Source: a virus
Taxonomy: Duplodnaviria; Heunggongvirae; Uroviricota; Caudoviricetes
DNA: 64,000 bases
Reading direction: 5' to 3' (one strand)
Virus record (IMG/VR): IMGVR_UViG_3300042473_000506
The position numbers and the translations under genes are program-made. Shown here piece by piece: positions 1,105 through 32,408 of this stretch (position 1 is the stretch's first letter; each line of letters starts with the position of its first letter). Under the pieces are notes generated by a model that did not search any database, was not told where the DNA came from, and worked only from the letters and a program-made list of their open reading frames with translations.

Positions 1105-1164
1105 CAGGATAGCATTTTTGGTTTCATTAACAGTGAAATTTTTGATTTTGCTGTTGCTATCCTA
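1105..1164 (-). ncRNA. CAGCAA stem-loop element 1
   Basis: AGGATAG-CAA-CAGCAA...CTATCCTG. Confidence 0.75.
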
Positions 1165-2167: not shown

Positions 2168-2230
2168 CAGGATACTGTTTGCTTTTCACAGCCAAAAAGT
2201 GAAATATTTTGGTTTGCTGTAAGTATCCTA
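2168..2230 (-). ncRNA. CAGCAA stem-loop element 2
   Basis: AGGATAC-TTA-CAGCAA...GTATCCTG. Confidence 0.75.
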
Positions 2231-2556: not shown

Positions 2557-2563
2557 AATAAAC

Positions 2564-2640: not shown

Positions 2641-2646
2641 ATAAAC

Positions 2647-2725: not shown

Positions 2726-2732
2726 ATAAAAT

Positions 2733-2807
2733 TGGTAGCCACGGACAATTTCGAAATGTCGACTCCCGCCTTATCAAGACGGTACTCTGCCTCTGAGTTA
2801 CGTGGCC
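2733..2807 (-). tRNA. tRNA-Ile(GAT)
   Basis: Loop TT-GAT-AA, CCA. Confidence 0.9.
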
Positions 2808-2812
2808 ATAAA

Positions 2813-3214
2813 TTACCACTCTGCGTATTCTGTTATTATACGAGAGTTTTTATCTTTTCTTTTTGTTGATTCTACACATCGCAGTTTAACTTCTTTTACA
2901 TCGCATATTTCTGCAATAGGAACGAGATATACTTTATCTAATTCATTTACATAGACTGCAATATAATCGATGTTACTTTCATTGTAAGAAACTCTATTTG
3001 TAAATGTGTTTTGAGATAGTTTAATTGTAACTATTCCGTTACTTTCTAACGATCTAAACTTAACTTGAATTCGTAAAAGTTTACCGTCGTGTCTATCTAA
3101 CACATAATCATAAGGACAACCTTGTGGCATTTTGCCAGTCCAATATCCTCTTTTGGCAGAAACGAGCACAAATGCTGCTTCTCCTATTTCACCTTTTTCG
3201 TTTGATATACTCAT
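2813..3214 (-). mobile_element. Free-standing PD-(D/E)XK endonuclease (group I intron-associated type), putative homing endonuclease
   Basis: GEIGE..YDYVLD..IQVK motifs; SD GGAG; TATAAATA upstream; inserted in the tRNA array. Confidence 0.75.
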
Positions 3215-3238
3215 AGTGTTCTCCTACAAGTATTTATA

Positions 3239-3284
3239 ACGCTCGCCAGGAAAGCGATTGTTATACCATTTAACTACAAGAGGA
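3239..3284 (-). pseudogene. 5' half of a tRNA (acceptor 5' strand, D-arm, anticodon arm; no T-arm)
   Basis: CCTCTTG-TA-GTTA-AATGGTA-TAAC-A-ATCGC-TTTCCTG-GCGA, then runs into the endonuclease promoter. Confidence 0.5.
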
Positions 3285-3296
3285 ATAAACTGCTTA

Positions 3297-3369
3297 GGGG
3301 TGACTAACGGGATTTGAACCCGTACTGACAAGGTCACAACATGTAGTGCTACCATTACACTATAGCCAC
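3297..3369 (-). tRNA. tRNA-His(GTG), CCA not encoded
   Basis: Loop TT-GTG-AC, C73. Confidence 0.85.
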
Positions 3370-3392
3370 ACCTAAGAAGTCTAACAAAATAT

Positions 3393-3466
3393 TGGCACCC
3401 GGACTAGGGATCGAACCTAGGCTAACAGAGTCAAAGTCTGTTGTGCTACCATTACACAATCCGGGA
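3393..3466 (-). tRNA. tRNA-Gln(TTG)
   Basis: ACAGA-CTTTGAC-TCTGT, CCA. Confidence 0.92.
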
Positions 3467-3474
3467 ACAAAAAA

Positions 3475-3531
3475 CAGGATGCTTATTTTTCAATTAAAAG
3501 TTGAATTTTTTGATTTGCTGGACGCATCCTA
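3475..3531 (-). ncRNA. CAGCAA stem-loop element 3
   Basis: AGGATGC-GTC-CAGCAA...GCATCCTG. Confidence 0.75.
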
Positions 3532-3535
3532 AAAC

Positions 3536-3610
3536 TGGCATACCCCCTTGGATTTGAACCAAGCCTAACGGTTTTGGAGACCGGCGTGCTGCCGCTGACA
3601 CTAGGGATAC
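3536..3610 (-). tRNA. tRNA-Trp(CCA)
   Basis: Loop CT-CCA-AA, G73, CCA. Confidence 0.88.
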
Positions 3611-3619
3611 ATAATAAAA

Positions 3620-3681
3620 CAGGATCAACTTTGGTTTTTTTGAATAATAAAAAAGTTTTTAAGTTTGCTGAACTGATCCTA
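3620..3681 (-). ncRNA. CAGCAA stem-loop element 4
   Basis: AGGATCA-GTT-CAGCAA...TGATCCTG. Confidence 0.75.
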
Positions 3682-3685
3682 AAAC

Positions 3686-3801
3686 TGGTACGACCGGTAG
3701 GTCTCGAACCTACAAGAGCACGGTAACTATGTTATGTGCCCCTTCCCCTGACCTATGCTATGAGCATAACGGGAGGTCTGCCATATTCCACTTACGGTCG
3801 C
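3686..3801 (-). tRNA. Atypical 116-nt Leu-like tRNA with elongated anticodon arm (CAT at tip)
   Basis: Acceptor GCGACCG/CGGTCGT, A73, CCA, T-arm, long variable arm, extra TATGC-TCATA-GCATA hairpin. Confidence 0.65.
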
Positions 3802-3809
3802 ATAATGTA

Positions 3810-3838
3810 ATTATACAATCTTATGTAGAATTTGTCAA
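3810..3838 (-). promoter_or_regulatory. sigma70 promoter
   Basis: TTGACA-17-TATAAT exact. Confidence 0.9.
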
Positions 3839-3844
3839 TTGTCT

Positions 3845-3936
3845 TGGCGGAAAGCAGAGGAGTCGAACCCCATCCCATTTCTGAGAACCCAGTTTTCAAG
3901 GCTGGTCGCAGGACCAACCCCGCTGCATTACTTTCC
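3845..3936 (-). tRNA. tRNA-Ser(TGA)
   Basis: Loop CT-TGA-AA, long variable arm, G73, CCA. Confidence 0.9.
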
Positions 3937-3945
3937 ATTTAAACT

Positions 3946-4021
3946 TGGTCTCGCATGAAGGACTCGAACCTTCGAAATCCTGGCCCCAAACCAGGTGGCA
4001 TAGCCGCTAACCGAATGCGAG
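3946..4021 (-). tRNA. tRNA-Pro(TGG), second copy
   Basis: CCTGG-TTTGGGG-CCAGG, CCA. Confidence 0.88.
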
Positions 4022-4028
4022 ATAAAAT

Positions 4029-4117
4029 TGGTGGAGCCTGAAGGAATTGAACCTCTTGCCAGCCACCCCACTTAATAATGGCTACCAGGTTACAGCTGGC
4101 AATGGGGGACAAGCTCC
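4029..4117 (-). tRNA. Atypical tRNA-Tyr(GTA) with truncated D-arm
   Basis: GCCAG-CTGTAAC-CTGGT, long variable arm, CCA, D region about 10 nt. Confidence 0.6.
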
Positions 4118-4331
4118 AAATTGTTAACACTCTCTTTCGAAAGTGCTTATTAAAACAAACTGTTACGCTATGCGTCCTGTTCTGATTCAGAGTCAGCAGG
4201 TACCAATTTGCTTTAATAACTAGTATTTTTTTATCCACATAAGGATAAGCCATCCACTAGTCCGCCCGTTTAGAACATGTTTTAAGTGCGTTCCCCGGGC
4301 CTCGTTCCCGTACTATATTACACTTTGCGAT

Positions 4332-4481
4332 CTACGACCGCCCTTGAGCAATCTCTCGCTTCCTACTTGCTTCGTAATACGCAGTTGCACGTTGTAACTT
4401 TTCCAAAATCATCTTGCGAAGATCTTGTTTAGTTAAAGTATGCGCTTTTGTAAACTCAGCTTGTCTCTTCAAATCTGTCAT
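4332..4481 (-). CDS. Hypothetical 49-aa protein directly after the attenuator
   Basis: SD AAGGA before ATG at 4481 (MTDLKRQ...). Confidence 0.6.
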   Translation of the reverse strand: MTDLKRQAEFTKAHTLTKQDLRKMILEKLQRATAYYEASRKREIAQGRS

Positions 4482-4493
4482 TCTTCCTTGCGG

Positions 4494-4528
4494 AAAACAA
4501 AAAACCCCAGGGTTTTTAATCCTAGGGT
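4494..4528 (-). terminator. Rho-independent terminator (attenuator 3:4 hairpin)
   Basis: ACCCTAGG-9nt-CCTGGGGT followed by TTTTTGTTTT. Confidence 0.85.
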
Positions 4529-4557
4529 CCTTGAAGTTTGTTGTGTTAACTTGTGTG

Positions 4558-4704
4558 TTACACGACAGTCCTCCGGACCCTAGAAATCTCTGGTGTACGA
4601 TCATATGATAGACTTCCCGCATTAATCGATAACCAACCGCAGGCTATTACACCTACCTGTTTGGGCATCGTATTAAATTGTTGATGTCTATTGGACGATT
4701 GCAT
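4558..4704 (-). CDS. 48-aa leader peptide containing all 20 amino acids
   Basis: MQSSNRHQQFNTMPKQVGVIACGWLSINAGSLSYDRTPEISRVRRTVV; AG-rich SD; contains the antiterminator strand. Confidence 0.75.
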   Translation of the reverse strand: MQSSNRHQQFNTMPKQVGVIACGWLSINAGSLSYDRTPEISRVRRTVV

Positions 4705-4763
4705 TTTGTTTTCTCTTTAAAACCTTTTGTTACATACACTACCTTATTGCAGTGTATGTTCTA

Positions 4764-4792
4764 ATTATACAGTTATTTAGCATTGTTGTCAA
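4764..4792 (-). promoter_or_regulatory. sigma70 promoter heading the leader/tRNA array
   Basis: TTGACA-17-TATAAT exact. Confidence 0.9.
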
Positions 4793-4926
4793 CCCTTATT
4801 TGTTCTTTTGAACAAAAAGTTTTTAACAACTTCTCTTCCTAACTAGTCTCTATTGTACTGCTTCTATTTATGTCTGTCAATAAGTATGTGGTTAAAATGC
4901 CACAATTTTGGCGAATTTTTATTTTA

Positions 4927-20843: not shown

Positions 20844-21515
20844 TTAGTGAAATTCCGGGAATAAGATTTCCTGTACGAATTTCTTCATAGTAGGTTCAGA
20901 TATGCCCATACTAATCATACTTTTGATCACATGGGGATTCTGTTTCTGATAATGGCAATAACGATTTTGTGCCATGTGATAATCAGCACCACTTTGTTGT
21001 TCTATTCCTACATTCTTTAGATAGAAATCTAATGTGGTTAATGCTGTATTGCATAGTTGGTCTATTTCAGCTTCGTCTTGTAGATTACCAGCAGCTACCA
21101 TAGCAGGACTGAAGATCTGTTGTGCCCACTCGGGTAATTGTCTAGGCTTGTTCCATTCTAGTCCATGCACCTGAGCTTTAAACCACAAATACATAAAACT
21201 ATTAGGATCACCAGCGTGACTGAAGTCGTGAAACGCACCTGTTATTTTGTTTGGGCCGCATACAGCATCAAACCCATAGATAGGGCTAGGATCGTTGAAG
21301 TGCGGAAATACTGTGACATGTAATATGTAGATATTGTAGGTCTCACGGAAATCTACAATTTCAACATGTGCTCTGCGGAATTGGTTACTGGACCATAGAG
21401 TATTATGCCAACCATATTGATGTGCAGACGGGGAATTAATCTGTTCCCCGACAACATTAAATCTTTCTGTAATATCAGCGGCTAGTTTACTAACCTTATC
21501 CCAAACTACTGTCAT
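20844..21515 (-). CDS. pcyX: Ferredoxin-dependent bilin reductase (PcyX/PcyA-like)
   Basis: FRRAHVE, LHVTVFP....PIYGFD, GAFHDFS; adjacent to heme oxygenase. Confidence 0.8.
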   Translation of the reverse strand: MTVVWDKVSKLAADITERFNVVGEQINSPSAHQYGWHNTLWSSNQFRRAHVEIVDFRETYNIYILHVTVFPHFNDPSPIYGFDAVCGPNKITGAFHDFSHAGDPNSFMYLWFKAQVHGLEWNKPRQLPEWAQQIFSPAMVAAGNLQDEAEIDQLCNTALTTLDFYLKNVGIEQQSGADYHMAQNRYCHYQKQNPHVIKSMISMGISEPTMKKFVQEILFPEFH

Positions 21516-22032
21516 AGTCCCTCATCATTCGTATTGCCCAATCAAAGGCCACATTGGCTTCATCGCCCATGCTGTCGTCCAGCTTGGCACGAATATTGGT
21601 CATCAGTGTTCGGGGATCTTCGAACTCTAAGTTACGATGTGCGCCCGGAACAATCTTCTTAATCATTTGGCCACCGAACATGTCACCCATGTGCCATGTA
21701 TACAAGTGTGCCATAATCTTGTTAGGATCTTTACTAATGCTTAGAATGTAATTGTAATAGTCAACAACGATATGACGGAACTCATGGCGGGGATTGTCCC
21801 CGTTCATTTCTTGATAATCCATTGCTAGATAAAATGCACGGCGTAAGTCTGGCAAGTCTCCTAACAATCGATTGGCCCCTGCGGCACCTTCAATGGCTCC
21901 ATAGAATAGCCACTTTTGATATGTCCAATCTACCCACAAATCAAAAGGCAGGGTTTGTGCAAACACTGCCTTCATAAACGGAGTAGATTCAGCCTCTGCA
22001 TGTTTAGCACTGGTTAAATCTTTTAAGCTCAT
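21496..22032 (-). CDS. hemO: Heme oxygenase
   Basis: LKDLT...H.EAE; HLYTWHMGDMFGGQMI. Confidence 0.9.
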   Translation of the reverse strand: MSLKDLTSAKHAEAESTPFMKAVFAQTLPFDLWVDWTYQKWLFYGAIEGAAGANRLLGDLPDLRRAFYLAMDYQEMNGDNPRHEFRHIVVDYYNYILSISKDPNKIMAHLYTWHMGDMFGGQMIKKIVPGAHRNLEFEDPRTLMTNIRAKLDDSMGDEANVAFDWAIRMMRDYDSSLG

Positions 22033-22040
22033 TTAAATCC

Positions 22041-22358
22041 TCATTCTGGTTCTACTTTAATTATCAAAGGGAATCCATTAGTACGAGCAAGATTGGTAGC
22101 ATCGATTCCTTTTTGGTCTGCAACTTCATAACTATAGATTCCTACAACAGCGTGTCCGTTGTTATGTATCTTTAAAGTCAATTCAAGAGAACTTTTTTCA
22201 CTATGTCTAAACACAGCAACTAGCATGGATATTACAAATTCAACAGGAGTAACATCGTCGTTGCAAACAATGACTTTGTACCTAGTAGGTTCTTGACTTT
22301 TTTCCTTATTTTTAGAAATAGTTTTTGTGTCTTTTTCGATAATTGTATCAGATGCCAT
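22041..22358 (-). CDS. clpS: N-end rule adaptor ClpS
   Basis: YKVIVCNDDVTPVEFV, IH..G..VVG.YSYEVA. Confidence 0.9.
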   Translation of the reverse strand: MASDTIIEKDTKTISKNKEKSQEPTRYKVIVCNDDVTPVEFVISMLVAVFRHSEKSSLELTLKIHNNGHAVVGIYSYEVADQKGIDATNLARTNGFPLIIKVEPE

Positions 22359-22400
22359 ATTATTCCTATTGGACGGGGAGTTGCCTCCCCCTGGGTTATA

Positions 22401-22832
22401 TTACTTGATTGCAATCACGCGAGGCTTGAGTGCTTCAGGTACTTCTCGTGTTAGTTTAACACTTAAAATACCGTTTGTCAATTCTGCATTGCCCACAATA
22501 ATGTGCTCTGCAAGAGTAAACGTGCGTTCGAAGTCTCGAGCTGCTAGTCCACGATATACATACTTAGATGTGTCGTCTTCTTTCTGGCGTTGGCCTTTAA
22601 TAATAAGTAGACTTTGATCTACCTCAATGCTGATATCCTCTCGATCAAATCCTGCAACAGCAACTTCAATTTCAAAAGAATTGTCGTCGTGCTTTAGAAC
22701 GTTGTATGGAGGATAGTTAGGAACGGAGTTTGAAAATCGTCTTTCAACATCGTTGAAAAGGCTATCAAATCCAATAAGTGCTCTGTTTAGTTGATTTAGA
22801 GCGGTGGTGTCGAAACGTGCGAGTTGATTCAT
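22401..22832 (-). CDS. Small heat-shock protein (Hsp20/IbpA-like)
   Basis: YPPYNV, AVAGF, YRGLAARDFERTF, NGIL. Confidence 0.92.
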   Translation of the reverse strand: MNQLARFDTTALNQLNRALIGFDSLFNDVERRFSNSVPNYPPYNVLKHDDNSFEIEVAVAGFDREDISIEVDQSLLIIKGQRQKEDDTSKYVYRGLAARDFERTFTLAEHIIVGNAELTNGILSVKLTREVPEALKPRVIAIK

Positions 22833-22905
22833 AGTTTTTCTCCTTAATAAGCAAGAATCATTTTGAGGTACCATACCTCAATGTAAAACCCTTACGGCGT
22901 CTTAC
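22833..22905 (-). promoter_or_regulatory. ROSE-like RNA thermometer
   Basis: CTTGCTT-ATT-AAGGAG (UUGCU pairing SD with bulged G) preceded by two hairpins. Confidence 0.65.
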
Positions 22906-23184: not shown

Positions 23185-24035
23185 ACTTCCACTATTTTTG
23201 TAATGTCCCAACCGCTGTCTTCACAGTATCCGTCGCTTTCATATCCGCGAGGGTTACAAACAATACGAGTCTCTCCAATGACATAGTCAAATGGGTGATG
23301 CGTATGTCCGTGTGTCCACAATTTGATCTGCGGATGGTCCATAATGAATTCACTTAGATCACTACTATAAGCACCGTTCATGAGATATTGAGATTTGTAC
23401 TGCTCATGTGTGCTCATCTTGCTAGGTGCATGATGTCCAATAACGACACACTTTTTGTCCTTGTGCTCACTGACAATGTGTTTGATGTATTGCAGTGTCT
23501 CACGATGACGAATAGCAGTATCAGCAGGCTTCAAAGGTGTGTAACCTTTTTCATCGTTTTTAATAATACGGAAGTCGTTCATCATATCACGAACAGCGTG
23601 AAGAGTTATAGGGTCACCCTTGTTCATATCAGTCCACAAAGTACCTCCTACAAACACAACATCATCGATGATCTTCGTGTCCTTTTCCAAGAAATAGACG
23701 TTAGAGTGTTTGGCGCATTCGTCACGCAGGTACTGAATACCTTTGTAGAACCCACCGTTGTAGAACTCATGGTTGCCAGCTACGTAGAAGACATGCGGAA
23801 ACTGGAAGGCACACCGCTTCAGGAAATCACGAAATCGAGCAACTCGTTGCAACTTGCGACCGAGATCAGCTAATGCTCCATTACTGTAGGGGCTAAAATC
23901 TGCGGCGTGATGGTCGTGCAAATCCTGAGAGATCATAATATCACCCGAAAGAATTAGCACATCTGCGCCTTCATCATTTGGAATTGTGATATCACTAAAT
24001 TCCAAATGTAGATCTGATACAATTTTGATTTTCAT
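23181..24035 (-). CDS. Calcineurin-like metallophosphoesterase
   Basis: SDLH, GD, GNHE, HH.P, HGHTH. Confidence 0.9.
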   Translation of the reverse strand: MKIKIVSDLHLEFSDITIPNDEGADVLILSGDIMISQDLHDHHAADFSPYSNGALADLGRKLQRVARFRDFLKRCAFQFPHVFYVAGNHEFYNGGFYKGIQYLRDECAKHSNVYFLEKDTKIIDDVVFVGGTLWTDMNKGDPITLHAVRDMMNDFRIIKNDEKGYTPLKPADTAIRHRETLQYIKHIVSEHKDKKCVVIGHHAPSKMSTHEQYKSQYLMNGAYSSDLSEFIMDHPQIKLWTHGHTHHPFDYVIGETRIVCNPRGYESDGYCEDSGWDITKIVEV

Positions 24036-24085
24036 AATAGTAATTATACACTCAATTAAATTTTTTGTCAATAAATACATACATT

Positions 24086-25300
24086 ATGATTAAGCCAAAA
24101 ACTCAAGATGTTATTGCCCAAAGTTTAGAAAAACTTAAAACAGAGGGTAATTATCGTACATTTACTGATATTCTACGTGAACGTGGAAGTTTTCCTAAAG
24201 CCATGTATTACGGACGTTATAACATCAAACATATAACCAACTGGTGCAGTAACGATTATCTAGGAATGGGTCAGCATAAAGTGGTAATCGATGCCATGCA
24301 TACAGCATTAGACACTACCGGAGCAGGGTCCGGTGGAACAAGAAATATCAGCGGAACTAGTCACTATCATGTTGCACTAGAACACGAACTAGCCAAGTTG
24401 CATGACAAGACTACAGCATTGACATTTACCAGTGGCTATGTTGCCAATCAAAGTACCCTAGGAGTACTAGGTAAGATGCTGCCAAACGTTCATTATATCA
24501 GCGACAGTGAAAATCACAACAGCATGATTGTAGGAATGAAATCTAGTCAAGCACCTATTACTGTTTGGCGTCATAATGATCTTACACATCTAAAAGAAAT
24601 TTTATCCACATTGTCCGATGATATTCAACCTATCATTGCCATGGAAGGTGTGTATAGTATGGACGGAGATCGAGGACTTGTTAGCGATGTATGCGATATT
24701 GCTCGACTATATGGAGCAATGGTATATGTTGACGAAGTACATGCTGTGGGACTCTATGGTCACAGAGGTGCTGGCATCGCTGAAGAACAGCGGTGCGTCG
24801 ATGGAGTAGACGTTATTCAAGGCACTTTAGCCAAGGCATTTGGTGTACAAGGAGGATACGTTGCAGGTAGCAGAGATCTTATAGATATGGTTCGTAGCTA
24901 TGCTAACGGATTTATTTTTTCAACGTCTATGAGTCCTGTATTATGTGCAGGAGCACTCGCTTCAGTTAAATGGGTTCAGGACCATCCTGATTTGCGTTCT
25001 AAAATTTTTGAAGTTGCAGGGGCAACAAGAGAACATCTTAAAAATGCAGGACTAGAAGTACATCTCAGCTCAGAAGGTGGACATATAGTCCCTGTTATGA
25101 TACGTGATGTTAAGAAATGTAAGGCAATCAGTGACTGGTTGTTGAACGAAAAGGCCATTTATGTGCAGCCTATAAATTATCCCACAGTTCCGTGGAGCAC
25201 AGAGCGTTTACGTTTTACGCCAACGCCAAATCATACAGAATCAGATATATATTATCTGGCTAAAAGCCTAAAGGAGGCATTTGATGTTTACAAAAATTAA
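24086..25300 (+). CDS. hemA: 5-aminolevulinate synthase (Shemin pathway)
   Basis: WCSNDYLGM, GAGSGGTRNISG, DEVHAVG, GTLAKAFG, INYPTV. Confidence 0.9.
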   Translation: MIKPKTQDVIAQSLEKLKTEGNYRTFTDILRERGSFPKAMYYGRYNIKHITNWCSNDYLGMGQHKVVIDAMHTALDTTGAGSGGTRNISGTSHYHVALEHELAKLHDKTTALTFTSGYVANQSTLGVLGKMLPNVHYISDSENHNSMIVGMKSSQAPITVWRHNDLTHLKEILSTLSDDIQPIIAMEGVYSMDGDRGLVSDVCDIARLYGAMVYVDEVHAVGLYGHRGAGIAEEQRCVDGVDVIQGTLAKAFGVQGGYVAGSRDLIDMVRSYANGFIFSTSMSPVLCAGALASVKWVQDHPDLRSKIFEVAGATREHLKNAGLEVHLSSEGGHIVPVMIRDVKKCKAISDWLLNEKAIYVQPINYPTVPWSTERLRFTPTPNHTESDIYYLAKSLKEAFDVYKN

Positions 25301-25706
25301 AAAGTATTTATGGTTTACAGCCGGTATCCTATTTCTAGGAATCGCATACATTGGAGTCATAGTGCCGGGAATCCCGTGGAGCACACCTAGTTTAATTGCT
25401 GCCTATTGTTTTGCTCGAAGTAGCGAAAGATTTCATAACTATATGCTCAATCACAAATTGTTTGGTCCGTTCATTACTAACTGGCGTGACGGGAAAGTTT
25501 ACCCAACTAAGGTAAAATGGATCATGTTTATCTGCATGGATGCTAGTTTAGTTATTATGTGGTTTGCTACACAGAACTGGAAAGCTGTAGCAGGTATGGG
25601 CGTATTCTTTGCATTGGTACTATTGTGGGCCAGTCGTTATCCAGGTAGCAAAGAAGAAAGCGACCGTAGAAAGGCTGCTGGCGAAAAGATCGGTTGGTTT
25701 AAGTAA
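25284..25706 (+). CDS. DUF454/YbaN family membrane protein
   Basis: GVIVPGIP.STP...AAYCFARSSER. Confidence 0.85.
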   Translation: MFTKIKKYLWFTAGILFLGIAYIGVIVPGIPWSTPSLIAAYCFARSSERFHNYMLNHKLFGPFITNWRDGKVYPTKVKWIMFICMDASLVIMWFATQNWKAVAGMGVFFALVLLWASRYPGSKEESDRRKAAGEKIGWFK

Positions 25707-25709
25707 CCA

Positions 25710-25740
25710 AAAAAAAGGACTCCTAAGAGTCCTTTTAAAA
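25710..25740. terminator. Terminator between convergent genes
   Basis: aaaaaggactc-ctaa-gagtcctttt. Confidence 0.75.
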
Positions 25741-25743
25741 CAC

Positions 25744-27141
25744 TTACGCTATTACAGCGTAACGTGGAGCGTTGATTGTAGCCAACATTACATTGACTGG
25801 ATCCAACGATTCGGCGCTTAGGATGCTCTTCATGATAGCAGGGCTGAATCCGCTAACAAGGGCAACACCCTTCTTGTCATGCTTAACTGGAACGTTGCCA
25901 GCACGAGCATTCAAGTTCCAGAATACAATGTTGGGAACAGTGTATCCTGCCGCTTCATACTTACGAGCGATCATTTCCATTGCCGAGTCGTCGTGACGAG
26001 CACAGTAATTGAATTCCATATCACTCATGATAAGGATATACTTTGGCATATCCTTTGCATCAACATTGCCCTTGACTGCGAAGTCAAGCACAGTGTTAAA
26101 TGCGGCGTGTAGATTAGTACTCATGTCCCATTCTGCACGTTGTAGTTGAGCCAACTTGCTCAACAGGTTACCCTTCAAGATTTCGATCTTGCTCTTGGTA
26201 GAGAAGGTCAAAAACATGTCCTTGAATGGACCAGTGTTCTTGTCAGCAAGGTACAAGCCCAAACTAACGCAAACATCCATACAGGTCAAGTTAGCGTTTC
26301 CGCCAACTGGAGAGCTCATAGAGCCAGACACGTCACACATTGGCAACACCAGTTCATCACCGATGTAGTTTGGCAATGCATCCCATTGTGCTTGCACAAC
26401 AGTGGCGTCACCACCAAACTTGTGGCTCTTGATAACGTCATATGGGTAAACAGCCGAAGCGTTAACCTTTGCGTCACCAGTAACCAACTTTGCCTTGTAA
26501 GCATCATAGCCTACAGGGTCGTGCTTCTTAAAAGCCTTTTGGTATCGAGCAGCCGCCAACGATGGTACGTGGCTATAGTTGATGTCATCCCAAGTGTTTG
26601 CACACATGTTCTGTTCAACTGTCTTGCTCAAGTTAACCAAACTCTTACGGTAGAACTTTGGGCTCATTCCGAAGAAGGTGCGGATTTCAGCAGCCAACGC
26701 ACCTTGACGTGGCATCCACTTTGCGGCCAGCCCGTTGCTTGCACGTAGCGCATCACCGATTAGGGTAAATGCTTGTGCCTTCACTTCCTTAGAAGTAAAG
26801 ATCAACAGGTCGTCCCAACGACCGAATTCAGCCAGGTGTGGCAAAATACGGGCAAGCGCCTTAGGGTTGGTCTTTTCAAGATTCAAAAGAATCTTACGAA
26901 CAACTTCACGTTCGCCTGCACCACCACGGACGTCACGAGCCCACATCAAAAGACGTAGAGCAAGAGTTTCGTCTTGTGCTAGTGCGCGAGCAAACTGAGT
27001 GCTCAAATCCTTACCACGGCTTGCACCAATGGCAAAGAACAAATCTACAAGATCACTCTTGCTAGATTCAAAAGTCTTCATACCGTTTGCGGTACGAGAT
27101 TCAACTGGAACGGACTTAACCGCTTCTACAAATGCGTTCAT
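25744..27141 (-). CDS. DUF2828-family vWA protein (TROVE/Ro60-like architecture inferred)
   Basis: RD.RGG.GER, GRWDDL, KW.PR, VPS.A, DVSGSM (MIDAS), SDMEF, FWNL, SGFSP. Confidence 0.8.
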   Translation of the reverse strand: MNAFVEAVKSVPVESRTANGMKTFESSKSDLVDLFFAIGASRGKDLSTQFARALAQDETLALRLLMWARDVRGGAGEREVVRKILLNLEKTNPKALARILPHLAEFGRWDDLLIFTSKEVKAQAFTLIGDALRASNGLAAKWMPRQGALAAEIRTFFGMSPKFYRKSLVNLSKTVEQNMCANTWDDINYSHVPSLAAARYQKAFKKHDPVGYDAYKAKLVTGDAKVNASAVYPYDVIKSHKFGGDATVVQAQWDALPNYIGDELVLPMCDVSGSMSSPVGGNANLTCMDVCVSLGLYLADKNTGPFKDMFLTFSTKSKIEILKGNLLSKLAQLQRAEWDMSTNLHAAFNTVLDFAVKGNVDAKDMPKYILIMSDMEFNYCARHDDSAMEMIARKYEAAGYTVPNIVFWNLNARAGNVPVKHDKKGVALVSGFSPAIMKSILSAESLDPVNVMLATINAPRYAVIA

Positions 27142-27153
27142 TTTATTTTCCTT

Positions 27154-27195
27154 CAGGTTACTTTTAAATTAAAAAATTTTGCTGTATATAACCTA
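27154..27195 (-). ncRNA. CAGCAA element 5, abutting the DUF2828 RBS
   Basis: AGGTTAT-ATA-CAGCAA...GTAACCTG followed by AAGGA SD. Confidence 0.7.
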
Positions 27196-27201
27196 TACAA
27201 G

Positions 27202-27440
27202 CAGGATGGGTGTGCCAATTTGTTTATTTTCTGGTCTGGCCAATTATAGCACCCAGACCCTATCGACAATTCATGTTGACTATCTAAACTTGTGTCTGCG
27301 TTAGAAACATACAAAGTCTTTCCCTTGTGTCATCCATTCCTTGAGTGTCTAGTTTCCTAGAACAGTATCTCCACTGTGTCCTACAACCACTTTCTATGGC
27401 ATTTAACTTTAGTATTGTTTTAATTGCTGAATCCATCCTA
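27202..27440 (-). ncRNA. CAGCAA element 6 with about 200-nt structured insert
   Basis: AGGATGG-ATT-CAGCAA...CCATCCTG; inner hairpins TCTAG-GAAA-CTAGA, ACAGT/ACTGT, GGTCTGG/CCAGACC. Confidence 0.7.
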
Positions 27441-27446
27441 GGATCA

Positions 27447-27475
27447 ATTATAGCACACGTTCGTCTGAGGTTCAA
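27447..27475 (-). promoter_or_regulatory. sigma70-like promoter with predicted start at the first base of element 6
   Basis: TTGAAC-17-TATAAT. Confidence 0.7.
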
Positions 27476-27501
27476 TTCAGTTGTAGTGCTATAAAATAAA
27501 A

Positions 27502-27666
27502 CAGGTTAGTTGTCGGCTGCTTTTATTCAACTCAGGCCACCACTCTGAGCTCGCTAGTCTATTTCAATGTTGACTCTTCAACGCACTCGGTCAAGACTCT
27601 GTGCTCCAATTCAACACCATAGGGTCTAGCAGTCCATATTAAATGAAAATTGCTGCACCTAACCTA
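27502..27666 (-). ncRNA. CAGCAA element 7 with about 130-nt insert
   Basis: AGGTTAG-GTG-CAGCAA...CTAACCTG; inner helices GCTAG/CTAGC, TTGAC/GTCAA, CTCAG/CTGAG. Confidence 0.7.
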
Positions 27667-27701
27667 AAACTTCTTTTAACAAGTTTCCTTGCTATATATC
27701 T

Positions 27702-27730
27702 ATTATAGTGTCATATAATTATCTTGTCAA
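27702..27730 (-). promoter_or_regulatory. sigma70 promoter
   Basis: TTGACA-17-TATAAT exact. Confidence 0.9.
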
Positions 27731-27768
27731 CAAAAATATGCACTATAATAGCCAAAATCTAGATGATT

Positions 27769-28875
27769 TTAAAATGCATCCATGTAGTTGTAGTACTTTT
27801 CTTTAATGCGGTTCAGTGTCACACGGTCACCGTCCTCGTTAATGAAAACAAACTTACCAGCAGTTGCATCAATCTGCTTGAGATCTTCTTGACCAAATCG
27901 AGCATCTTCCCAATTCCAGTCTGTTTCAATAGAAGCCAGACCGTCGAGTGCTGGCTCAGCACTCTTTGCATCTTCAAAGACCTTGTAGTCAATGCTGACA
28001 CGATTGGTCAGTGGATTGCCTGTCCAGACTTCTTGCTCAATCAACTCCGGATTAATGTCTAGGCCTTTGATCTGCAGGGCAACCTTGTACTTGCTGTCAC
28101 CACCGAACTCTGGCTTGGCGTTGAGCATACGCATAGCTTCGCTGGCAGTTTCTTTGTATCGATTCATTTCTTCAACCAATGCCTTCAGCATGTCAAAGTT
28201 GAACTGATCAAACATTGCCGCAACTCGGCATACACTGGCGATATGATCAACATTGTCCAGATTGTCTGCACAGTACTCCATAATGAAGTCTTGTTCCAGA
28301 CCTTTGAAGTCCAGTGAGTAGAAGATACGACCAGGACGGTTTCGCATGTGGCTGTCAATGCGCCACTTGTCGTTACAGGTTAGAATGAACAGCTTCTTGG
28401 AGGGATATACACCGTCCAATAGTGTCAGCATCTTTTCCTGGTCATCCTTGTCGTAGACCTTTTCAAACTCGTCAAATAGGATCACTGTGGGTTGCTCAAT
28501 CATCTGCATGAAGCTGTTAAAGCCTTCACCGCACCATGGCTCGTTGATAACAATTGTTGGCACCGCCGCTTCTGCGGCAGTGACTGCCAACAGTTTGGCT
28601 AACAGTGTCTTGCCCGAACCTTTTTCACCAGTAAGCATTACACCAGTGGATGCAGTACGGTCATTGAAAGTATTGAGAATACGTTGGCTCTGCTTGCGAG
28701 TATCTCCGTATACCTTGCCGCGGATCTCGAAGCTTTCGATCGCTTCAAGATAGAAACAGCCAGCCATCTTGTCAAATTTAACAGTGTAGTTGCCAACAGG
28801 CAGTTGCTCATGTAGATCCATTGCTTCCTTAGTGGAAACATTAAATCGTGTACCAGATTTCAAAAAATATGTCAT
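27769..28875 (-). CDS. AAA+ ATPase
   Basis: GEKGSGKT, ILFDEFEK, RNRPGR. Confidence 0.88.
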   Translation of the reverse strand: MTYFLKSGTRFNVSTKEAMDLHEQLPVGNYTVKFDKMAGCFYLEAIESFEIRGKVYGDTRKQSQRILNTFNDRTASTGVMLTGEKGSGKTLLAKLLAVTAAEAAVPTIVINEPWCGEGFNSFMQMIEQPTVILFDEFEKVYDKDDQEKMLTLLDGVYPSKKLFILTCNDKWRIDSHMRNRPGRIFYSLDFKGLEQDFIMEYCADNLDNVDHIASVCRVAAMFDQFNFDMLKALVEEMNRYKETASEAMRMLNAKPEFGGDSKYKVALQIKGLDINPELIEQEVWTGNPLTNRVSIDYKVFEDAKSAEPALDGLASIETDWNWEDARFGQEDLKQIDATAGKFVFINEDGDRVTLNRIKEKYYNYMDAF

Positions 28876-28952
28876 ACTGTCTTTCAGTGTGTTTTGTTGC
28901 TATGTGTAAATTATACAATAAAAACAAGGGGTTGTATAGCCCCTTGTTAGTT

Positions 28953-30347
28953 TTATTTGCGAGCGTTAGCTCGAACTTCTTCGAACGAAATCTCGTTGTA
29001 AAGTTTGCCGTTCTCGAATACCTTCTGTAGAGAAGACTTCCACTCGAGTCCTCGATCAGTCCAACCTTTTGGTTGTTCTACGGAGGATTGATATTCTCCG
29101 CCGGACTCCCACAGTTCGACTCGGCCTTTCTTGCTTTTCTTACCTGGATCAGTGACAGGATCTTTCTGGACATCTACCCAGGTTCCGTTGATACAGGCTG
29201 CACTTGCTTTTAGGGCAAACTTCTGCGTGTCACGATCTACAATCTGCAACAGGGCACCGCCCATACCAAAAGCAATGTTATCGGCACTCCAACCCATGGC
29301 CATGAACGCACCAAGGATACTGCGAACAGTGAGTTCGTTGATGCCGTCACCTTGGATCAGACGCACATTGTTCAGTACCTTGAATCCTTTAGCGTTAACT
29401 GTGTAGCCAAACTTCTCGCCCAGGATTTCAACTAGACGACGGTTGACTTCGACAGGATCGCCACTATCAGGCCTAATGACAACAGTAGCACCACTATCGA
29501 TAACCTGTTGGCGAAGTTCTTCGCCCCAGAGCTTAGAGGCTGCGTTGTAGATATCATAACTATCACTGACAACAGCGAGGATAGTACCGGGACGAGCGAA
29601 CTGGGTAAGCATATTTCTGTAAGCATCTACTTCCCCGTCACGACCCCAACTGGTGATTGTACTATGCTCTGCGGCTGGGATTGAGAAACCAGCAATACCA
29701 GCATTGTAATATTCACGAGCAAACAGAACACCAGTAATAGTGTCAGTTCCCATAAAGTTGACCAAGTGCGCGGCACTGCCAATGCCAGCACTTTCAAGGC
29801 TAGATACGCCACGAGCACCAAAGTCGTGCAACTTAAAATCGATAGTAGTAGGATCACCAGTTCTCTCCAAGAAGTCAAGAATGACTTGTTTAATTGTGTA
29901 TGATTGTGTTGCCACAGTAGTACCATACCACACTGCACGAAGCAGGGCAGTTTCCAACCAAGTGGTCAACCAGAAGCATTCTGGATCTGTGTTTTCAATT
30001 GTCGCAAGTACATTTTTGACGGGGACCACAGTTCCTTCTGGCACGGCCCGAATGACAACTGGGAGGTATCCACGGTGCTTGTCCAGTATGTATTGCCATC
30101 CTGCTCGGTTGAAAGGCTCACCGTGTAGGGTAAGGATTTCTTCAGCGATGTCAATGTCTGCTTGGGTGATGGGTTCGAGAAGGTACTCTTTGATAAAAGC
30201 CTGTAATCCGAAGAATACTGTTCTATCGTACCGCCCGCCTCTAGACTCGATATATGAATATACACCTGTAGTACCTGCTGGGTATTGTTTGAACATGCTG
30301 ACTTTGTAGCTGTCAGTGTTCAAAATAAGATTTTTTGCGAGTTTCAT
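28953..30347 (-). CDS. nadV: Nicotinamide phosphoribosyltransferase
   Basis: TDSYK, HDFGARG, PAAEHS, RPDSG, GDG, FGMGG. Confidence 0.92.
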   Translation of the reverse strand: MKLAKNLILNTDSYKVSMFKQYPAGTTGVYSYIESRGGRYDRTVFFGLQAFIKEYLLEPITQADIDIAEEILTLHGEPFNRAGWQYILDKHRGYLPVVIRAVPEGTVVPVKNVLATIENTDPECFWLTTWLETALLRAVWYGTTVATQSYTIKQVILDFLERTGDPTTIDFKLHDFGARGVSSLESAGIGSAAHLVNFMGTDTITGVLFAREYYNAGIAGFSIPAAEHSTITSWGRDGEVDAYRNMLTQFARPGTILAVVSDSYDIYNAASKLWGEELRQQVIDSGATVVIRPDSGDPVEVNRRLVEILGEKFGYTVNAKGFKVLNNVRLIQGDGINELTVRSILGAFMAMGWSADNIAFGMGGALLQIVDRDTQKFALKASAACINGTWVDVQKDPVTDPGKKSKKGRVELWESGGEYQSSVEQPKGWTDRGLEWKSSLQKVFENGKLYNEISFEEVRANARK

Positions 30348-31388: not shown

Positions 31389-32408
31389 TTATGCTCCTAC
31401 AAAATGTGAGATGATTTCAAAATGGTCTTCAAAGCATTCTTCGCTTCGAACCTCTGCAATAGGTACCCAACGTGCTTTCTCAGCATCGTCACTGCCTTTT
31501 ACTTTTGGCAACTCACCGTCTGGCAGTTGGATGTGAAACGCATGTGTAATTATACGTCCTCTAGGACTTCTGTCAACCGCATCAAATACCTTACTGCGAA
31601 CAATCGATCCACGCAACACCGGAGCAGGCACTTTAATCATAGTTTCTTCACGCAGTTCACGGATAGCCGCATCTTCAACTGACTTGTCGGTATTGGCGTT
31701 GACGTAGCCGCCTGGCAGTGCCCACAAGCCCTTGCCGGGCTCTGCACGGCGTTTGATCATCAGCACATGACCTGAACAGATCACAACACTATCAGCAGTG
31801 CTGAAGATTGGAGGATATGGCAATGACGCATACTGTTTCTTATAGTTTGCAACAAACTCTCGCTCACGGATAATTTGTTCATATTCGGCATGGTGGCGGA
31901 ATTCATCCAAGAACTCAAACACAGTTTCTGGCACAACACCTTTAATGAACTTCATGTTGACATCACGCTTGAAGTAAAGATCACGAATGTCAACAGCACT
32001 AAGGAACTCAATCAGTTCCACGTTTTCATATCCCCATTGTGGGAACATGTCCAGATAGAAGCTACTGTCGTCTTTCTTGTGTCCAATAATACCAGTCTTG
32101 GTACCAAGGACTGCATACTTGCTGACAATGCCTTGGATACGCACTGCCCAGGCTTGATCGTTATAGATAGTGTCTACATTGGGTTCAATGTAGATTTGCA
32201 TATTCAATCCACGGGTAGCCGATTTGATCATGCCCGCACGTTCTGCACTTGTGAACGGATTCTTGTAAGTACGGGGTTGTGCGGCAGAACCAGTGATAAT
32301 TACTAACTGTTCGCATAGGGCAGTGGCACGTTTTACAATCTCAAGGTGAGCACTGTGAAATGGTTGAAAGCGCCCAATGAGCACTAGGGTGTGATATTTT
32401 TTAGTCAT
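31389..32408 (-). CDS. nadM: Bifunctional NMN adenylyltransferase/Nudix ADP-ribose pyrophosphatase
   Basis: GRFQPFHSAH; WALPGG...AAIRELREET. Confidence 0.92.
   Translation of the reverse strand: MTKKYHTLVLIGRFQPFHSAHLEIVKRATALCEQLVIITGSAAQPRTYKNPFTSAERAGMIKSATRGLNMQIYIEPNVDTIYNDQAWAVRIQGIVSKYAVLGTKTGIIGHKKDDSSFYLDMFPQWGYENVELIEFLSAVDIRDLYFKRDVNMKFIKGVVPETVFEFLDEFRHHAEYEQIIREREFVANYKKQYASLPYPPIFSTADSVVICSGHVLMIKRRAEPGKGLWALPGGYVNANTDKSVEDAAIRELREETMIKVPAPVLRGSIVRSKVFDAVDRSPRGRIITHAFHIQLPDGELPKVKGSDDAEKARWVPIAEVRSEECFEDHFEIISHFVGA

What the first reader, a model, noticed from the sequence alone, without database searches (positions are those of the whole stretch)
25744..27730. DUF2828/vWA gene preceded by three copies of an unrecognised CAGCAA RNA motif, one abutting its own RBS: candidate Ro60/Y-RNA-like RNP
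Seen in sequence: the minus-strand leader contains elements at 27666-27502, 27440-27202 and 27195-27154. Each has U-AGG(A/U)U-NN (7-bp closing stem) + exactly 3 nt + CAGCAA ... complementary strand ending CCUG, with compensatory stem changes (AGGTTAG/CTAACCT, AGGATGG/CCATCCT, AGGTTAT/GTAACCT). Two promoters feed them, and the one at 27447-27475 would start at the first base of element 6. The smallest copy ends 1 nt before the AAGGA SD. Established: Ro60/Rsr proteins (helical TROVE + vWA) bind Y RNAs encoded next to them and act in structured-RNA and tRNA metabolism. Inference: this helical + vWA protein binds the CAGCAA helix, autoregulates via element 5, and is loaded with cargo-bearing RNAs (elements 6 and 7). 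The motif does not match the Y-RNA consensus as I know it, so it would be a distinct family.
Basis: partly seen in the sequence, partly recalled or inferred. Interest (0 to 1): 0.9.

Follow-up and report, generated by a model that had tools for sequence, protein, structure and literature searches.

The report
Ro60-like phage protein with handle RNAs
A giant lake-water phage encodes a ring-shaped protein that folds like the RNA-binding autoantigen Ro60. In front of the gene and in its tRNA array lie seven small RNAs sharing one conserved "handle"; they are most likely the protein's partner RNAs, and I found no paper describing this RNA family.

Summary
Seven exact copies of AGG(A/T)T-N5-CAGCAA lie on the minus strand (0.08 expected). 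Each is closed by a different 7-8 bp stem ending CCUG. Three fill the leader of the DUF2828/DUF7788 gene and four sit in tRNA slots.

The protein model (pLDDT 94.9) matches only Ro60 structures over its whole length (Z 21, 405 residues). It has a complete MIDAS motif but no detectable TROVE sequence match.

The pairing holds in both directions. RNA-model hits lie beside the gene in six cultured phages of five host genera, and in none of five phages lacking it. Of 50 viral contigs picked by the RNA motif alone, 30 encode the protein, including all 7 that are at least 40% complete.

Rfam finds no Y RNA or YrlA. It gives sub-threshold full-length hits to Dictyostelium Class I RNA.

A conserved strong promoter drives the three-element leader. 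The second promoter sits in a 55-nt insert that the relatives compared lack. The smallest element abuts the Shine-Dalgarno in nearly all relatives, so translational autoregulation is plausible but untested.

A 2024 preprint already calls the Bas63 orthologue Ro60-like and a counter of Ppl defence; the RNAs were only guessed at. This scan has reported the same system on other DNA.

The parts
27702..27730 (-). Promoter P1, TTGACA-17-TATAAT, about 36 nt upstream of the first leader element
   Evidence: 12 of 12 consensus match. In 32 of 34 distinct related leaders, a match of at least 10 of 12 ends 9-39 nt upstream of the first element, with a 17-nt spacer in 31 of them.
27502..27666 (-). Leader element 7: 165-nt handle RNA (stem AGGUUAG/CUAACCU, GUG, CAGCAA) with a large structured body
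   Evidence: In relatives the element keeps its size class, the closing stem covaries (4 stem pairs change on both sides), and the body motifs CUGGAGC and UUGAAGG are conserved.
27447..27475 (-). Promoter P2 (TTGAAC-17-TATAAT with TG), inside a 55-nt insert (about 27445-27499) that is absent from the relatives compared
   Evidence: Relatives have 10-14 nt between the two large elements. Contigs from three metatranscriptome runs skip 27445-27499.
27202..27440 (-). Leader element 6: 239-nt handle RNA (stem AGGAUGG/CCAUCCU, AUU, CAGCAA) with a large multi-helix body
   Evidence: The size class and an inner hairpin are conserved, with compensatory changes, in 16 relatives.
27154..27195 (-). Leader element 5: 42-nt minimal handle (stem AGGUUAU/GUAACCU) ending directly at the Shine-Dalgarno; candidate translational operator
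   Evidence: RNA model R1 scores it 42.5 bits, E 1.4e-6. The same position is kept in 45 of 54 distinct related leaders by an automatic scan, and by eye in 8 of the other 9.
27149..27153 (-). Shine-Dalgarno AAGGA, 7 nt before the ATG at 27141
   Evidence: Read directly from the sequence.
25744..27141 (-). Gene for a 465-aa Ro60-fold protein (DUF2828 + DUF7788: helical ring plus vWA domain with MIDAS D270-x-S272-x-S274, T342, D374)
   Evidence: Pfam matches 7.2e-30 and 1.5e-51. MIDAS residues are invariant in 72 homologues. AlphaFold2 pLDDT 94.9. Ro60 is the top structural match: Z 21.1, 405 residues, rmsd 3.8; Foldseek E 7e-8.
25713..25736 (-). Intrinsic terminator-like hairpin with a T-run, after the gene
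   Evidence: 10-bp stem followed by TTTTTTTT.
3620..3681 (-). Short handle RNA in a tRNA slot (stem AGGAUCA/UGAUCCU)
   Evidence: R1 scores it 53.8 bits. RF01414 scores it 24.3 bits.
3475..3531 (-). Short handle RNA in a tRNA slot (stem AGGAUGC/GCAUCCU)
   Evidence: R1 scores it 62.7 bits. RF01414 scores it 29.4 bits.
2168..2230 (-). Short handle RNA in a tRNA slot (stem AGGAUAC/GUAUCCU), carrying CUUACAGCAA as in the Class I RNA consensus
   Evidence: R1 scores it 58 bits. RF01414 aligns over its full length 1-56 at 29.4 bits.
1105..1164 (-). Short handle RNA in the tRNA array (stem AGGAUAG/CUAUCCU, extendable to 10 bp)
   Evidence: R1 scores it 62.2 bits. Fold z-score -4.4.

Best explanation
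The CAGCAA elements are genes or modules for small structured RNAs that share one protein-docking 'handle'. The handle is a 7-8 bp stem joining the RNA's 5' and 3' ends, then 3 nt and an unpaired CAGCAA on the 5' side, and a 3' strand ending CCUG.

The docking protein is most likely the Ro60-fold DUF2828/DUF7788 protein encoded at 25744-27141. Together they would form ribonucleoproteins analogous to Ro60-Y RNA particles. The variable bodies range from 26 nt to about 220 nt and would be displayed or used as adaptors.

Three handle RNAs are transcribed with the gene from a conserved strong promoter. The last and smallest one ends at the Shine-Dalgarno, so a protein bound there would block the ribosome and hold its own synthesis in step with the supply of free handles.

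By analogy with Bas63 gp130, the particle probably acts in RNA or tRNA metabolism during infection and helps the phage against a host defence.

Shown here: the RNA family, its covariation, the protein fold, the co-occurrence and the conserved leader layout.
Inferred: binding, autoregulation and the biological role.
For: 1. Motif: 7 exact copies on one strand against 0.08 expected, with seven different complementary stems.

2. Close relatives: in 80 related viral loci, the rule stem + 3 nt + CAGCAA + complement gives 205 hits on the gene strand and 14 on the other. In a 30-sequence alignment, 5 of 8 stem pairs change on both sides (covariation 0.587 against 0.151 shuffled, and at most 0.099 when the partner is slid).

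3. Protein: pLDDT 94.9. The ten best VIA-align rows are all Ro60 structures (Z 12.5-21.1 over about 380-408 residues), before a drop to Z about 10 for vWA-only matches. Foldseek against PDB and Swiss-Prot agrees. MIDAS residues are invariant.

4. Forward co-occurrence: whole-genome searches with RNA model R1 hit 5 of 5 DUF2828 phages (hosts Mycobacterium, Vibrio, Salmonella, Listeria, Campylobacter). In four of the five records the top hits lie within about 1 kb of the gene on its strand. In locus-restricted searches, Ralstonia phage RSP15 and Bas63 behave the same way. T4, T5, phiKZ, SPO1 and G (1.2 Mb in all) have neither the RNA nor the protein.

5. Reverse co-occurrence: of 50 viral contigs chosen by the RNA motif alone, 30 encode the protein, including 7 of 7 that are at least 40% complete. 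The base rate is 705 of 50,697 phage records.

6. Leader layout: P1 is conserved. The small element is followed within 1-3 nt by the purine run of the ribosome-binding site in 37 of 45 distinct leaders, although the stems differ.

7. Published work: Ro60 proteins bind RNAs encoded next to them on the same strand (PMC4201824), and phage phiLo Ro60 binds two upstream Y-like RNAs (PMC12135203). Bas63 gp130 is Ro60-like and counters Ppl (10.1101/2024.10.10.617714); it is this protein's orthologue.
Against: - No binding data exist for any member of this protein family with these RNAs.
- The protein shows no TROVE sequence match. A profile comparison with a phage TROVE protein aligns only the vWA part, at 9.9% probability.
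- The handle has none of the known Ro60-binding signatures: no Rfam Y_RNA or YrlA hit and no CGAA in the three leader elements (read).
- Ro60-style docking cannot therefore be assumed in detail.
- The only protein shown to bind Dictyostelium Class I RNAs directly is an RRM protein, not a Ro60-like one (PMC7919456).
- The abutment with the ribosome-binding site is clade-specific. In Felix O1-type phages and mycobacteriophages the handles lie downstream of the gene.
- All elements here are tightly packed, so adjacency may reflect compaction or shared processing rather than regulation.
Confidence: 0.62

Rival explanations
1. The leader handles do bind the protein, but the 42-nt element is simply the last RNA of a packed array. 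There is no translational feedback. Its position at the ribosome-binding site reflects compaction, or a shared 3' processing cut that also creates the 5' end of the mRNA.
For: All elements are tightly packed. The two large elements are 10-14 nt apart in relatives, and elements sit 3-8 nt from tRNA ends in the array. In Felix O1-type phages, mycobacteriophages and KVP40, the handles are not at the gene's start at all. In L024, L025 and L027 the Shine-Dalgarno lies about 12 nt further on.
Against: The 1-3 nt gap between the handle end and the purine run holds in 37 of 45 distinct leaders, across protein identities from 98% down to 57% and with six or more different stem sequences. Campylobacter phage PC14 also has a handle ending 21 nt before the start codon.
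Confidence: 0.3
2. The handles are punctuation for RNA processing or stability in polycistronic tRNA and ncRNA transcripts, recognised by host RNases or another factor. The Ro60-fold protein works on the same transcripts without docking on the handle.
For: Four copies occupy tRNA slots, flanked by the same U-rich spacers as the tRNAs. The 7-bp stem plus single-stranded 3' tail loosely recalls an acceptor stem. No binding has been shown.
Against: Phages with large tRNA arrays but no DUF2828 gene (T4, T5, SPO1, G) have no handle at E<=1. In Listeria, Campylobacter and mycobacteriophage genomes the handles cluster at the gene. An invariant unpaired CAGCAA beside a freely covarying stem is typical of a protein-recognition site.
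Confidence: 0.12
3. The handle is bound by a different protein, from the host or the phage, such as an RRM-type protein as for Dictyostelium Class I RNAs. The DUF2828 protein is only a genomic neighbour in the same pathway.
For: The one direct binder known for the look-alike Class I RNAs is the RRM protein Rnp1A (PMC7919456). Three short copies align full-length to RF01414.
Against: No other gene travels with the handles. The AAA ATPase next door is present in only 9 of 80 related loci and the phosphoesterase in 13 of 80. By contrast, the DUF2828 gene is present in every sufficiently complete record picked by the RNA motif.
Confidence: 0.1
4. The copies are DNA-level repeats (a mobile element, recombination or homing sites) or chance matches, not RNA.
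For: None beyond the repetition itself.
Against: There are 7 copies against 0.08 expected. The strand bias is strict (205 against 14). Stems change while pairing is kept. Bodies differ entirely in size and sequence. A conserved promoter stands in front.
Confidence: 0.01

Closest known systems
Ro60 (Rsr, TROVE + vWA) with Y RNAs: Deinococcus Yrn1, Salmonella/Mycobacterium YrlA and YrlB (PMC4201824), Thermus phage phiLo Ro60 with Yrl1 and Yrl2 (PMC12135203; PDB 9KOP, 9L5Y)
   Same: The protein is a helical ring closed by a vWA domain with a MIDAS motif (Z 21 to Xenopus Ro60, Z 16 to phiLo Ro60). Partner-RNA candidates are encoded beside the gene on the same strand. Each RNA is closed by a stem of its 5' and 3' ends with a conserved recognition element next to it. 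Several RNAs with different bodies accompany each protein.
   Different: There is no TROVE sequence match; structural alignments show 10-16% identity. The handle is stem + 3 nt + CAGCAA, not the bulged Y-RNA helix or the CGAA motif. No Rfam Y_RNA or YrlA hit was found. No tRNA-like domain was detected in the three leader RNAs. Phage G, which has a canonical TROVE protein, has no CAGCAA handles.
Bas63 (Escherichia phage JohannRWettstein) gp130, PhageMaP preprint 10.1101/2024.10.10.617714
   Same: It is an orthologue: bas63_0130 is the DUF2828 gene of a Felix O1-type phage, and Felix O1-type homologues share about 43% identity with the window protein over 96% of its length. The authors note its structural similarity to Ro60 and its place in front of the tRNA array, and show that it counters the Ppl defence system.
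   Different: The authors only guessed that some annotated tRNAs might be Y RNAs. Here the candidates are unannotated handle RNAs in the gaps of that array (L214:3253-3321, 3420-3479, 3875-3944). In the window, three handles precede the gene and one touches its ribosome-binding site. Whether this lake phage meets Ppl is unknown.
Dictyostelium Class I RNAs (Rfam RF01414; PMC7919456)
   Same: Both are 42-65 nt long, with a short stem joining the 5' and 3' ends, a conserved motif next to the 5' stem strand (Rfam consensus CUUACAGCAA, identical in copy 2168-2230), an A/U-rich variable rest and a 3' end reading C-UG. Alignments cover the full model (1-56) at 29.4, 29.4 and 24.3 bits.
   Different: The scores are below the gathering threshold of 41.5 bits. 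The Dictyostelium RNAs are eukaryotic, have their own promoter element, are reported as unique to dictyostelids, and are bound by an RRM protein. I could not test whether dictyostelids encode a DUF2828 protein. The likeness may be convergence.
Translational operators bound by the encoded RNA-binding protein (for example MS2 coat protein, T4 RegA and gp32, ribosomal-protein operons); established knowledge, not tested here
   Same: A copy of the protein's presumed RNA ligand sits at the ribosome-binding site of the protein's own mRNA.
   Different: No repression has been measured. The operator here would be a complete minimal member of the ligand family, not a mimic.

Membership tests
Ro60 / TROVE protein family | Sequence match to the TROVE domain (Pfam PF05731) | tested here: not met
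   Pfam lists only DUF2828 and DUF7788, even at E<=10. PF05731 finds nothing in the Rumpelstiltskin or SP116 genomes. hhalign of the 72-sequence profile against the phage G TROVE protein aligns only the vWA part, at 9.9% probability. A profile search of PDB sequences gives E 0.03-0.26 to TROVE/Ro60, at the MIDAS segment only.
Ro60 / TROVE protein family | Fold: alpha-helical repeat ring closed by a C-terminal vWA domain | tested here: met
   Model pLDDT 94.9. 1yvp_A gives Z 21.1, rmsd 3.8, 405 residues aligned, covering model residues 11-446. The ten best rows are all Ro60. Foldseek gives TM 0.66 and E 7e-8. In Swiss-Prot the top five are Ro60 from mouse, frog, Deinococcus, human and worm.
Ro60 / TROVE protein family | MIDAS motif (DxSxS ... 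T ... D) in the vWA domain | tested here: met
   D270, S272, S274, T342 and D374 are invariant in 72 homologues sharing 41-55% identity with the window protein.
Ro60 / TROVE protein family | Binds Y RNA on the ring's outer surface and single-stranded RNA ends in the central hole | not testable with these tools
   Needs biochemistry or a solved structure.
Y RNA / YrlA (Rfam RF00019, RF02553) | Match to the Rfam covariance models | tested here: not met
   No hit at E<=1 in window 24000-30000 or 1-4800, none at E<=10 in 27140-27700, and none at E<=0.1 in five DUF2828 loci of cultured phages.
Y RNA / YrlA (Rfam RF00019, RF02553) | Stem formed by the 5' and 3' ends, next to a conserved protein-binding element; gene beside the protein gene on the same strand | tested here: met
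   Folds, covariation and position and strand.
Y RNA / YrlA (Rfam RF00019, RF02553) | tRNA-like domain (YrlA) and GNCGAAN0-1G / CGAA motif | tested here: not met
   ARAGORN and Rfam find no tRNA-like part in 27154-27666. CGAA is absent from all three leader elements (read). A possible eighth element at 725-932 does carry a T-arm-like GGGTTCGATCCC.
Dictyostelium Class I RNA (Rfam RF01414) | Score at or above Rfam's gathering threshold (41.5 bits) | tested here: not met
   Best scores are 29.4, 29.4 and 24.3 bits over the full model length. The 42-nt leader copy and the two large ones are not hit.
Dictyostelium Class I RNA (Rfam RF01414) | Short 5'-3' stem, conserved 11-nt motif ending ACAGCAA next to the 5' strand, variable rest, 3' CUG(U), 42-65 nt | tested here: met
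   The alignment meets these features, as do the five short copies of 42-63 nt. The features are as described in PMC7919456.
Dictyostelium Class I RNA (Rfam RF01414) | Dictyostelid genomic context (upstream DUSE promoter element, nuclear gene) | tested here: not met
   These are phage genes behind sigma-70-type promoters or inside a tRNA operon.

The most novel reading that the evidence does not exclude
The CAGCAA-handle RNAs and the DUF2828 Ro60-fold proteins form a second, ancient branch of Ro-type ribonucleoproteins. It would be widespread in phages of many bacterial phyla and homologous to the Dictyostelium Class I RNAs, rather than merely similar. If so, Class I RNAs, published as unique to dictyostelids and with no known mechanism, would be the eukaryotic members of a family whose partner is a DUF2828 protein. 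In this phage the particle would also set its own level through a handle placed on the ribosome-binding site.
Probability: 0.12. Interest if true: 0.9.

Novelty: new variant of a known kind. Interest (0 to 1): 0.68.

Why it matters
Ro60-Y RNA particles are a classic but still poorly understood RNA surveillance system, and they are an autoantigen in lupus and Sjogren's syndrome.

This work points to a parallel system that is far more common in phages: 705 of 50,697 phage records, including Felix O1, KVP40, Listeria P100-type phages and Campylobacter phages. It has a different protein sequence family and a different, very simple RNA handle.

One orthologue already has a phenotype: Bas63 gp130 counters the Ppl defence system. 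Knowing the likely partner RNAs makes that mechanism directly testable in E. coli.

The handle on the ribosome-binding site offers a simple assay for binding in vivo. The likeness to Dictyostelium Class I RNAs gives a concrete lead for RNAs whose function has been open for twenty years.

Tried and rejected
1. Known RNA family: Rfam at permissive thresholds gave no Y_RNA, YrlA, riboswitch or leader family for the three leader elements. The only sensible hit anywhere was the sub-threshold RF01414 on three short copies.

2. tRNA-like bodies in the two large leader RNAs: ARAGORN and Rfam found none. Alignments of 15-16 relatives show conserved motifs and some covarying inner helices, but the consensus folds are weak (-10 kcal/mol) and I could not assign the bodies to any known RNA.

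3. Sequence link to Ro60: phmmer of the single protein against PDB gave nothing. The profile gave only the MIDAS segment, and hhalign gave 9.9% probability.

4. An obligate protein partner next door: the AAA ATPase (27769-28875) is adjacent in only 9 of 80 loci and the metallophosphoesterase in 13 of 80. I dropped the idea of a MoxR-type ATPase-vWA pair.

5. Expression: contigs from four metatranscriptome runs cover the gene and the leader up to about 27678, and none covers 27679-27755, which would fit a start at P1. These are assembled contigs of relatives, from libraries that may contain DNA, so this is no more than a weak hint.

6. Close cultured relatives: megablast of 20 kb found none.

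7. Literature: searches for DUF2828, DUF7788, PF11443, 'Ro-like' and Y RNA-like phage RNAs found no description of the RNA family. The library lacks most subscription journals.

8. Whether dictyostelids encode a DUF2828 protein could not be tested with the tools available; the Swiss-Prot fold search lists none.

9. No protein-RNA complex prediction was possible.
Full report
**What is in the sequence**

The 627-nt ORF-free stretch between the AAA-ATPase gene (27769-28875) and the gene at 25744-27141, both on the minus strand, holds three elements of one design:
- 27666-27502, 165 nt
- 27440-27202, 239 nt
- 27195-27154, 42 nt

Each starts U-AGG(A/U)U-NN, then has 3 nt and CAGCAA, and ends with the complement of the first strand followed by G. 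The stems differ: AGGTTAG/CTAACCT, AGGATGG/CCATCCT and AGGTTAT/GTAACCT. All three minimum-energy folds close with that 8-bp stem.

The pattern AGGWT-N5-CAGCAA occurs exactly seven times in the 64-kb window, always on the minus strand, against 0.08 expected. The other four copies (1105-1164, 2168-2230, 3475-3531, 3620-3681) are 57-63 nt long and have four further stem sequences. They sit in the tRNA array like extra tRNA genes, three of them 3-4 nt after an upstream tRNA's CCA.

**Transcription signals**

A perfect TTGACA-17-TATAAT lies at 27730-27702. A second promoter, TTGAAC-17-TATAAT with a TG extension, lies at 27475-27447, placed so that transcription would begin at the first base of the 239-nt element. 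A terminator-like hairpin follows the gene at 25736-25713.

The first promoter is conserved. In 32 of 34 distinct related leaders, a match of at least 10 of 12 ends 9-39 nt upstream of the first element, with a 17-nt spacer in 31 of them.

The second promoter is absent from the relatives compared. There the two large elements are only 10-14 nt apart, and contigs from three metatranscriptome runs join 27444 directly to 27500. It lies in a 55-nt insert peculiar to this phage.

**The protein**

The 465-aa product matches Pfam DUF2828 and DUF7788 and nothing else. The family is very large: 6264 cluster representatives at E<=0.001.

With a 72-sequence alignment, AlphaFold2 gives pLDDT 94.9. The structural matches are:
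- Foldseek's 13 significant PDB matches are all Ro60/TROVE structures.
- VIA-align gives Z 21.1, rmsd 3.8 Å over 405 residues to Xenopus Ro60.
- It gives Z about 16 to the Ro60 of Thermus phage phiLo and Z 12.5 to Deinococcus Rsr.
- Below these there is a drop to Z about 10 for matches to the vWA domain alone.
- Swiss-Prot models give the same picture.

The MIDAS residues D270, S272, S274, T342 and D374 are invariant.

At sequence level the link is not detectable. There is no TROVE Pfam match, only the MIDAS segment in a profile search of PDB, and 9.9% probability by hhalign against the phage G TROVE protein. It is a Ro60-fold protein of a separate sequence family.

**Is the RNA tied to the protein?**

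*Close relatives.* In 80 viral contigs encoding homologues of 57-98% identity, a mechanical scan for 7-nt stem + 3 nt + CAGCAA + complement finds 205 elements on the gene strand and 14 on the other. Most loci repeat the same three-part leader of about 163, about 240 and about 54 nt.

*Distant relatives.* I built covariance model R1 from 30 short elements. In that alignment 5 of 8 stem pairs change on both sides. The sequences had been selected for pairing, so the percentage of paired positions is not independent evidence. In the window, R1 finds only the five short copies and nothing else at E<=1.
- Run over whole genomes, R1 hits all five DUF2828-bearing cultured phages tested: Mycobacterium phage Rumpelstiltskin, Vibrio phage KVP40, Salmonella phage SP116, Listeria phage LMTA-57 and Campylobacter phage PC14.
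- In four of those five records the best hits lie within about 1 kb of the gene on its strand.
- In 7.3-7.5-kb loci from seven such phages, all 12 hits are on the gene strand.
- T4, T5, phiKZ, SPO1 and G (1.2 Mb in all) have neither the RNA nor the protein. Phage G carries a canonical TROVE-type protein, so the CAGCAA handle goes with the DUF2828 type, not with Ro60 in general.

*Reverse test.* I scanned IMG/VR for the RNA motif alone and searched the first 50 records for the protein. Thirty have it. All 7 records that are at least 40% complete have it, and the 20 without it are fragments of at most 20% completeness. The base rate is 705 of 50,697 phage records.

**What the RNA resembles**

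Rfam gives no Y_RNA or YrlA hit anywhere, and CGAA, the motif used to find bacterial and phiLo Y-like RNAs, is absent from the three leader elements.

The only meaningful Rfam result is RF01414, the Class I RNA of Dictyostelium. It aligns over its whole length to three short copies at 29.4, 29.4 and 24.3 bits, against a threshold of 41.5. Copy 2168-2230 carries the consensus CUUACAGCAA and the 3' C-UG.

Class I RNAs are described as 42-65 nt, with a short terminal stem, an 11-nt motif next to its 5' strand and a 3' CUGU. They are said to be unique to dictyostelids and are bound by an RRM protein (PMC7919456). The likeness is real but sub-threshold. I could not test whether it reflects common descent.

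**The element at the ribosome-binding site**

In the window the 42-nt element ends at G 27154. AAGGA follows at once, and the ATG lies 7 nt further on.

Among 54 distinct leaders of the clade, 45 have a small handle ending within 40 nt of the start codon. In 37 of those 45 the purine run of the Shine-Dalgarno begins 1-3 nt after the terminal G, even though the stems differ: AGGTTAT, AGAATGT, AGTTTAG, AGGTTAA, TGAATGC, AGATTAG.

Of the nine the scan missed, eight show such a handle by eye:
- four have the same layout with a variant core, CCGCAA;
- four were missed because of my distance or mismatch limits.

A 52-kDa protein docked on a helix that touches the Shine-Dalgarno would be expected to block 30S binding, as in classic translational operators. 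That is established principle applied by inference; nothing here measures it.

The arrangement is not universal. In Felix O1-type phages and mycobacteriophages the handles lie downstream of the gene. Dense packing of all elements offers a simpler reading.

**What is already known**

SEA-PHAGES and RefSeq annotate homologues as 'Ro-like RNA binding protein' or 'RNA-binding protein'.

The PhageMaP preprint (10.1101/2024.10.10.617714) reports that Bas63 gp130 has high structural similarity to Ro60 and counters the Ppl defence system. It speculates that some tRNA genes downstream might be Y RNAs. I confirmed that bas63_0130 is the DUF2828 orthologue. R1 finds three handle RNAs in unannotated gaps of that tRNA array.

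Canonical phage Ro60 with upstream Y-like RNAs is published for Thermus phage phiLo (PMC12135203) and for mycobacteriophages (PMC4201824). I found no paper describing the CAGCAA-handle RNAs or a function for DUF2828.

Earlier reports of this scan describe the same protein-RNA pairing in many other phage genomes. I retested the central claims here rather than relying on them.

**Verdict**

This is a real and widespread phage RNA family linked to a Ro60-fold protein. It is best read as a new variant of the Ro60-Y RNA type of ribonucleoprotein.

My confidence in each step:

| Claim | Confidence |
|---|---|
| RNA family and its linkage to the gene | about 0.9 |
| Direct binding of the handle by this protein | about 0.65 |
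| Translational autoregulation through the 42-nt element | about 0.35 |
| Homology with Dictyostelium Class I RNAs | about 0.1-0.15 |

Noticed in passing
window 725-932 (-): A possible eighth handle RNA with a different stem (TTGTAAG/CTTACAA, then TGT, then CAGCAA). It is 208 nt long and contains a T-arm-like GGGTTCGATCCC. My stem scan found it, but neither the AGG pattern nor model R1 did.
   Followed up: partly
window 3700-3850 (-): Behind a TTGACA...TATAAT promoter lies a tRNA-like RNA of about 115 nt. It has an acceptor-like stem (GCGACCG...CGGTCGTACCA), a T-arm and a long internal insertion, and ARAGORN does not call it. The handle element 3620-3681 follows it directly. RF01852 also gives a sub-threshold tRNA-Sec-like hit at 3849-3936.
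   Followed up: no
window 28953-30347 (-) and 31389-32408 (-): A nicotinamide phosphoribosyltransferase gene (NAMPT) and a gene fusing a cytidylyltransferase-like domain with a NUDIX domain lie just upstream of the locus. From memory, this looks like a phage NAD+ salvage pair of the kind reported to counter NAD-depleting defences; I did not check this.
   Followed up: no
window 21496-22874 (-): Heme oxygenase, ClpS adaptor and Hsp20 homologues lie in a row downstream of the locus.
   Followed up: no
L084:1470-2021 (Listeria phage LMTA-57, KJ591605.1): A ROOL RNA (RF03087; 88.5 bits, E 1e-16, just under the 99.1-bit threshold) lies about 1 kb upstream of the DUF2828 gene and its three handle RNAs. 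An RtcB-type 'tRNA-splicing ligase' gene lies 1.3 kb downstream.
   Followed up: no
G041:C1:30181-32567 and G049:C1:114278-116805 (IMG/VR records behind L133 and L141): In two records the DUF2828 gene matches in two pieces about 0.9-1 kb apart (query residues about 2-170 and 122-462). This suggests an insertion, such as an intron or a homing-endonuclease gene, or a disrupted gene.
   Followed up: no
L017, L019, L020, L021, about 70 nt upstream of the gene start at 3001: The handle that abuts the ribosome-binding site has the core CCGCAA instead of CAGCAA, with an intact AGGTTAA/TTAACCT stem. This natural variant of the otherwise invariant core is useful for defining what the binding partner tolerates.
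   Followed up: partly
L214:3875-3944 (Bas63, MZ501086.1): One handle-RNA hit overlaps the annotated 50-aa minus-strand CDS bas63_0137, so that small ORF may be a mis-annotation of an RNA gene.
   Followed up: no
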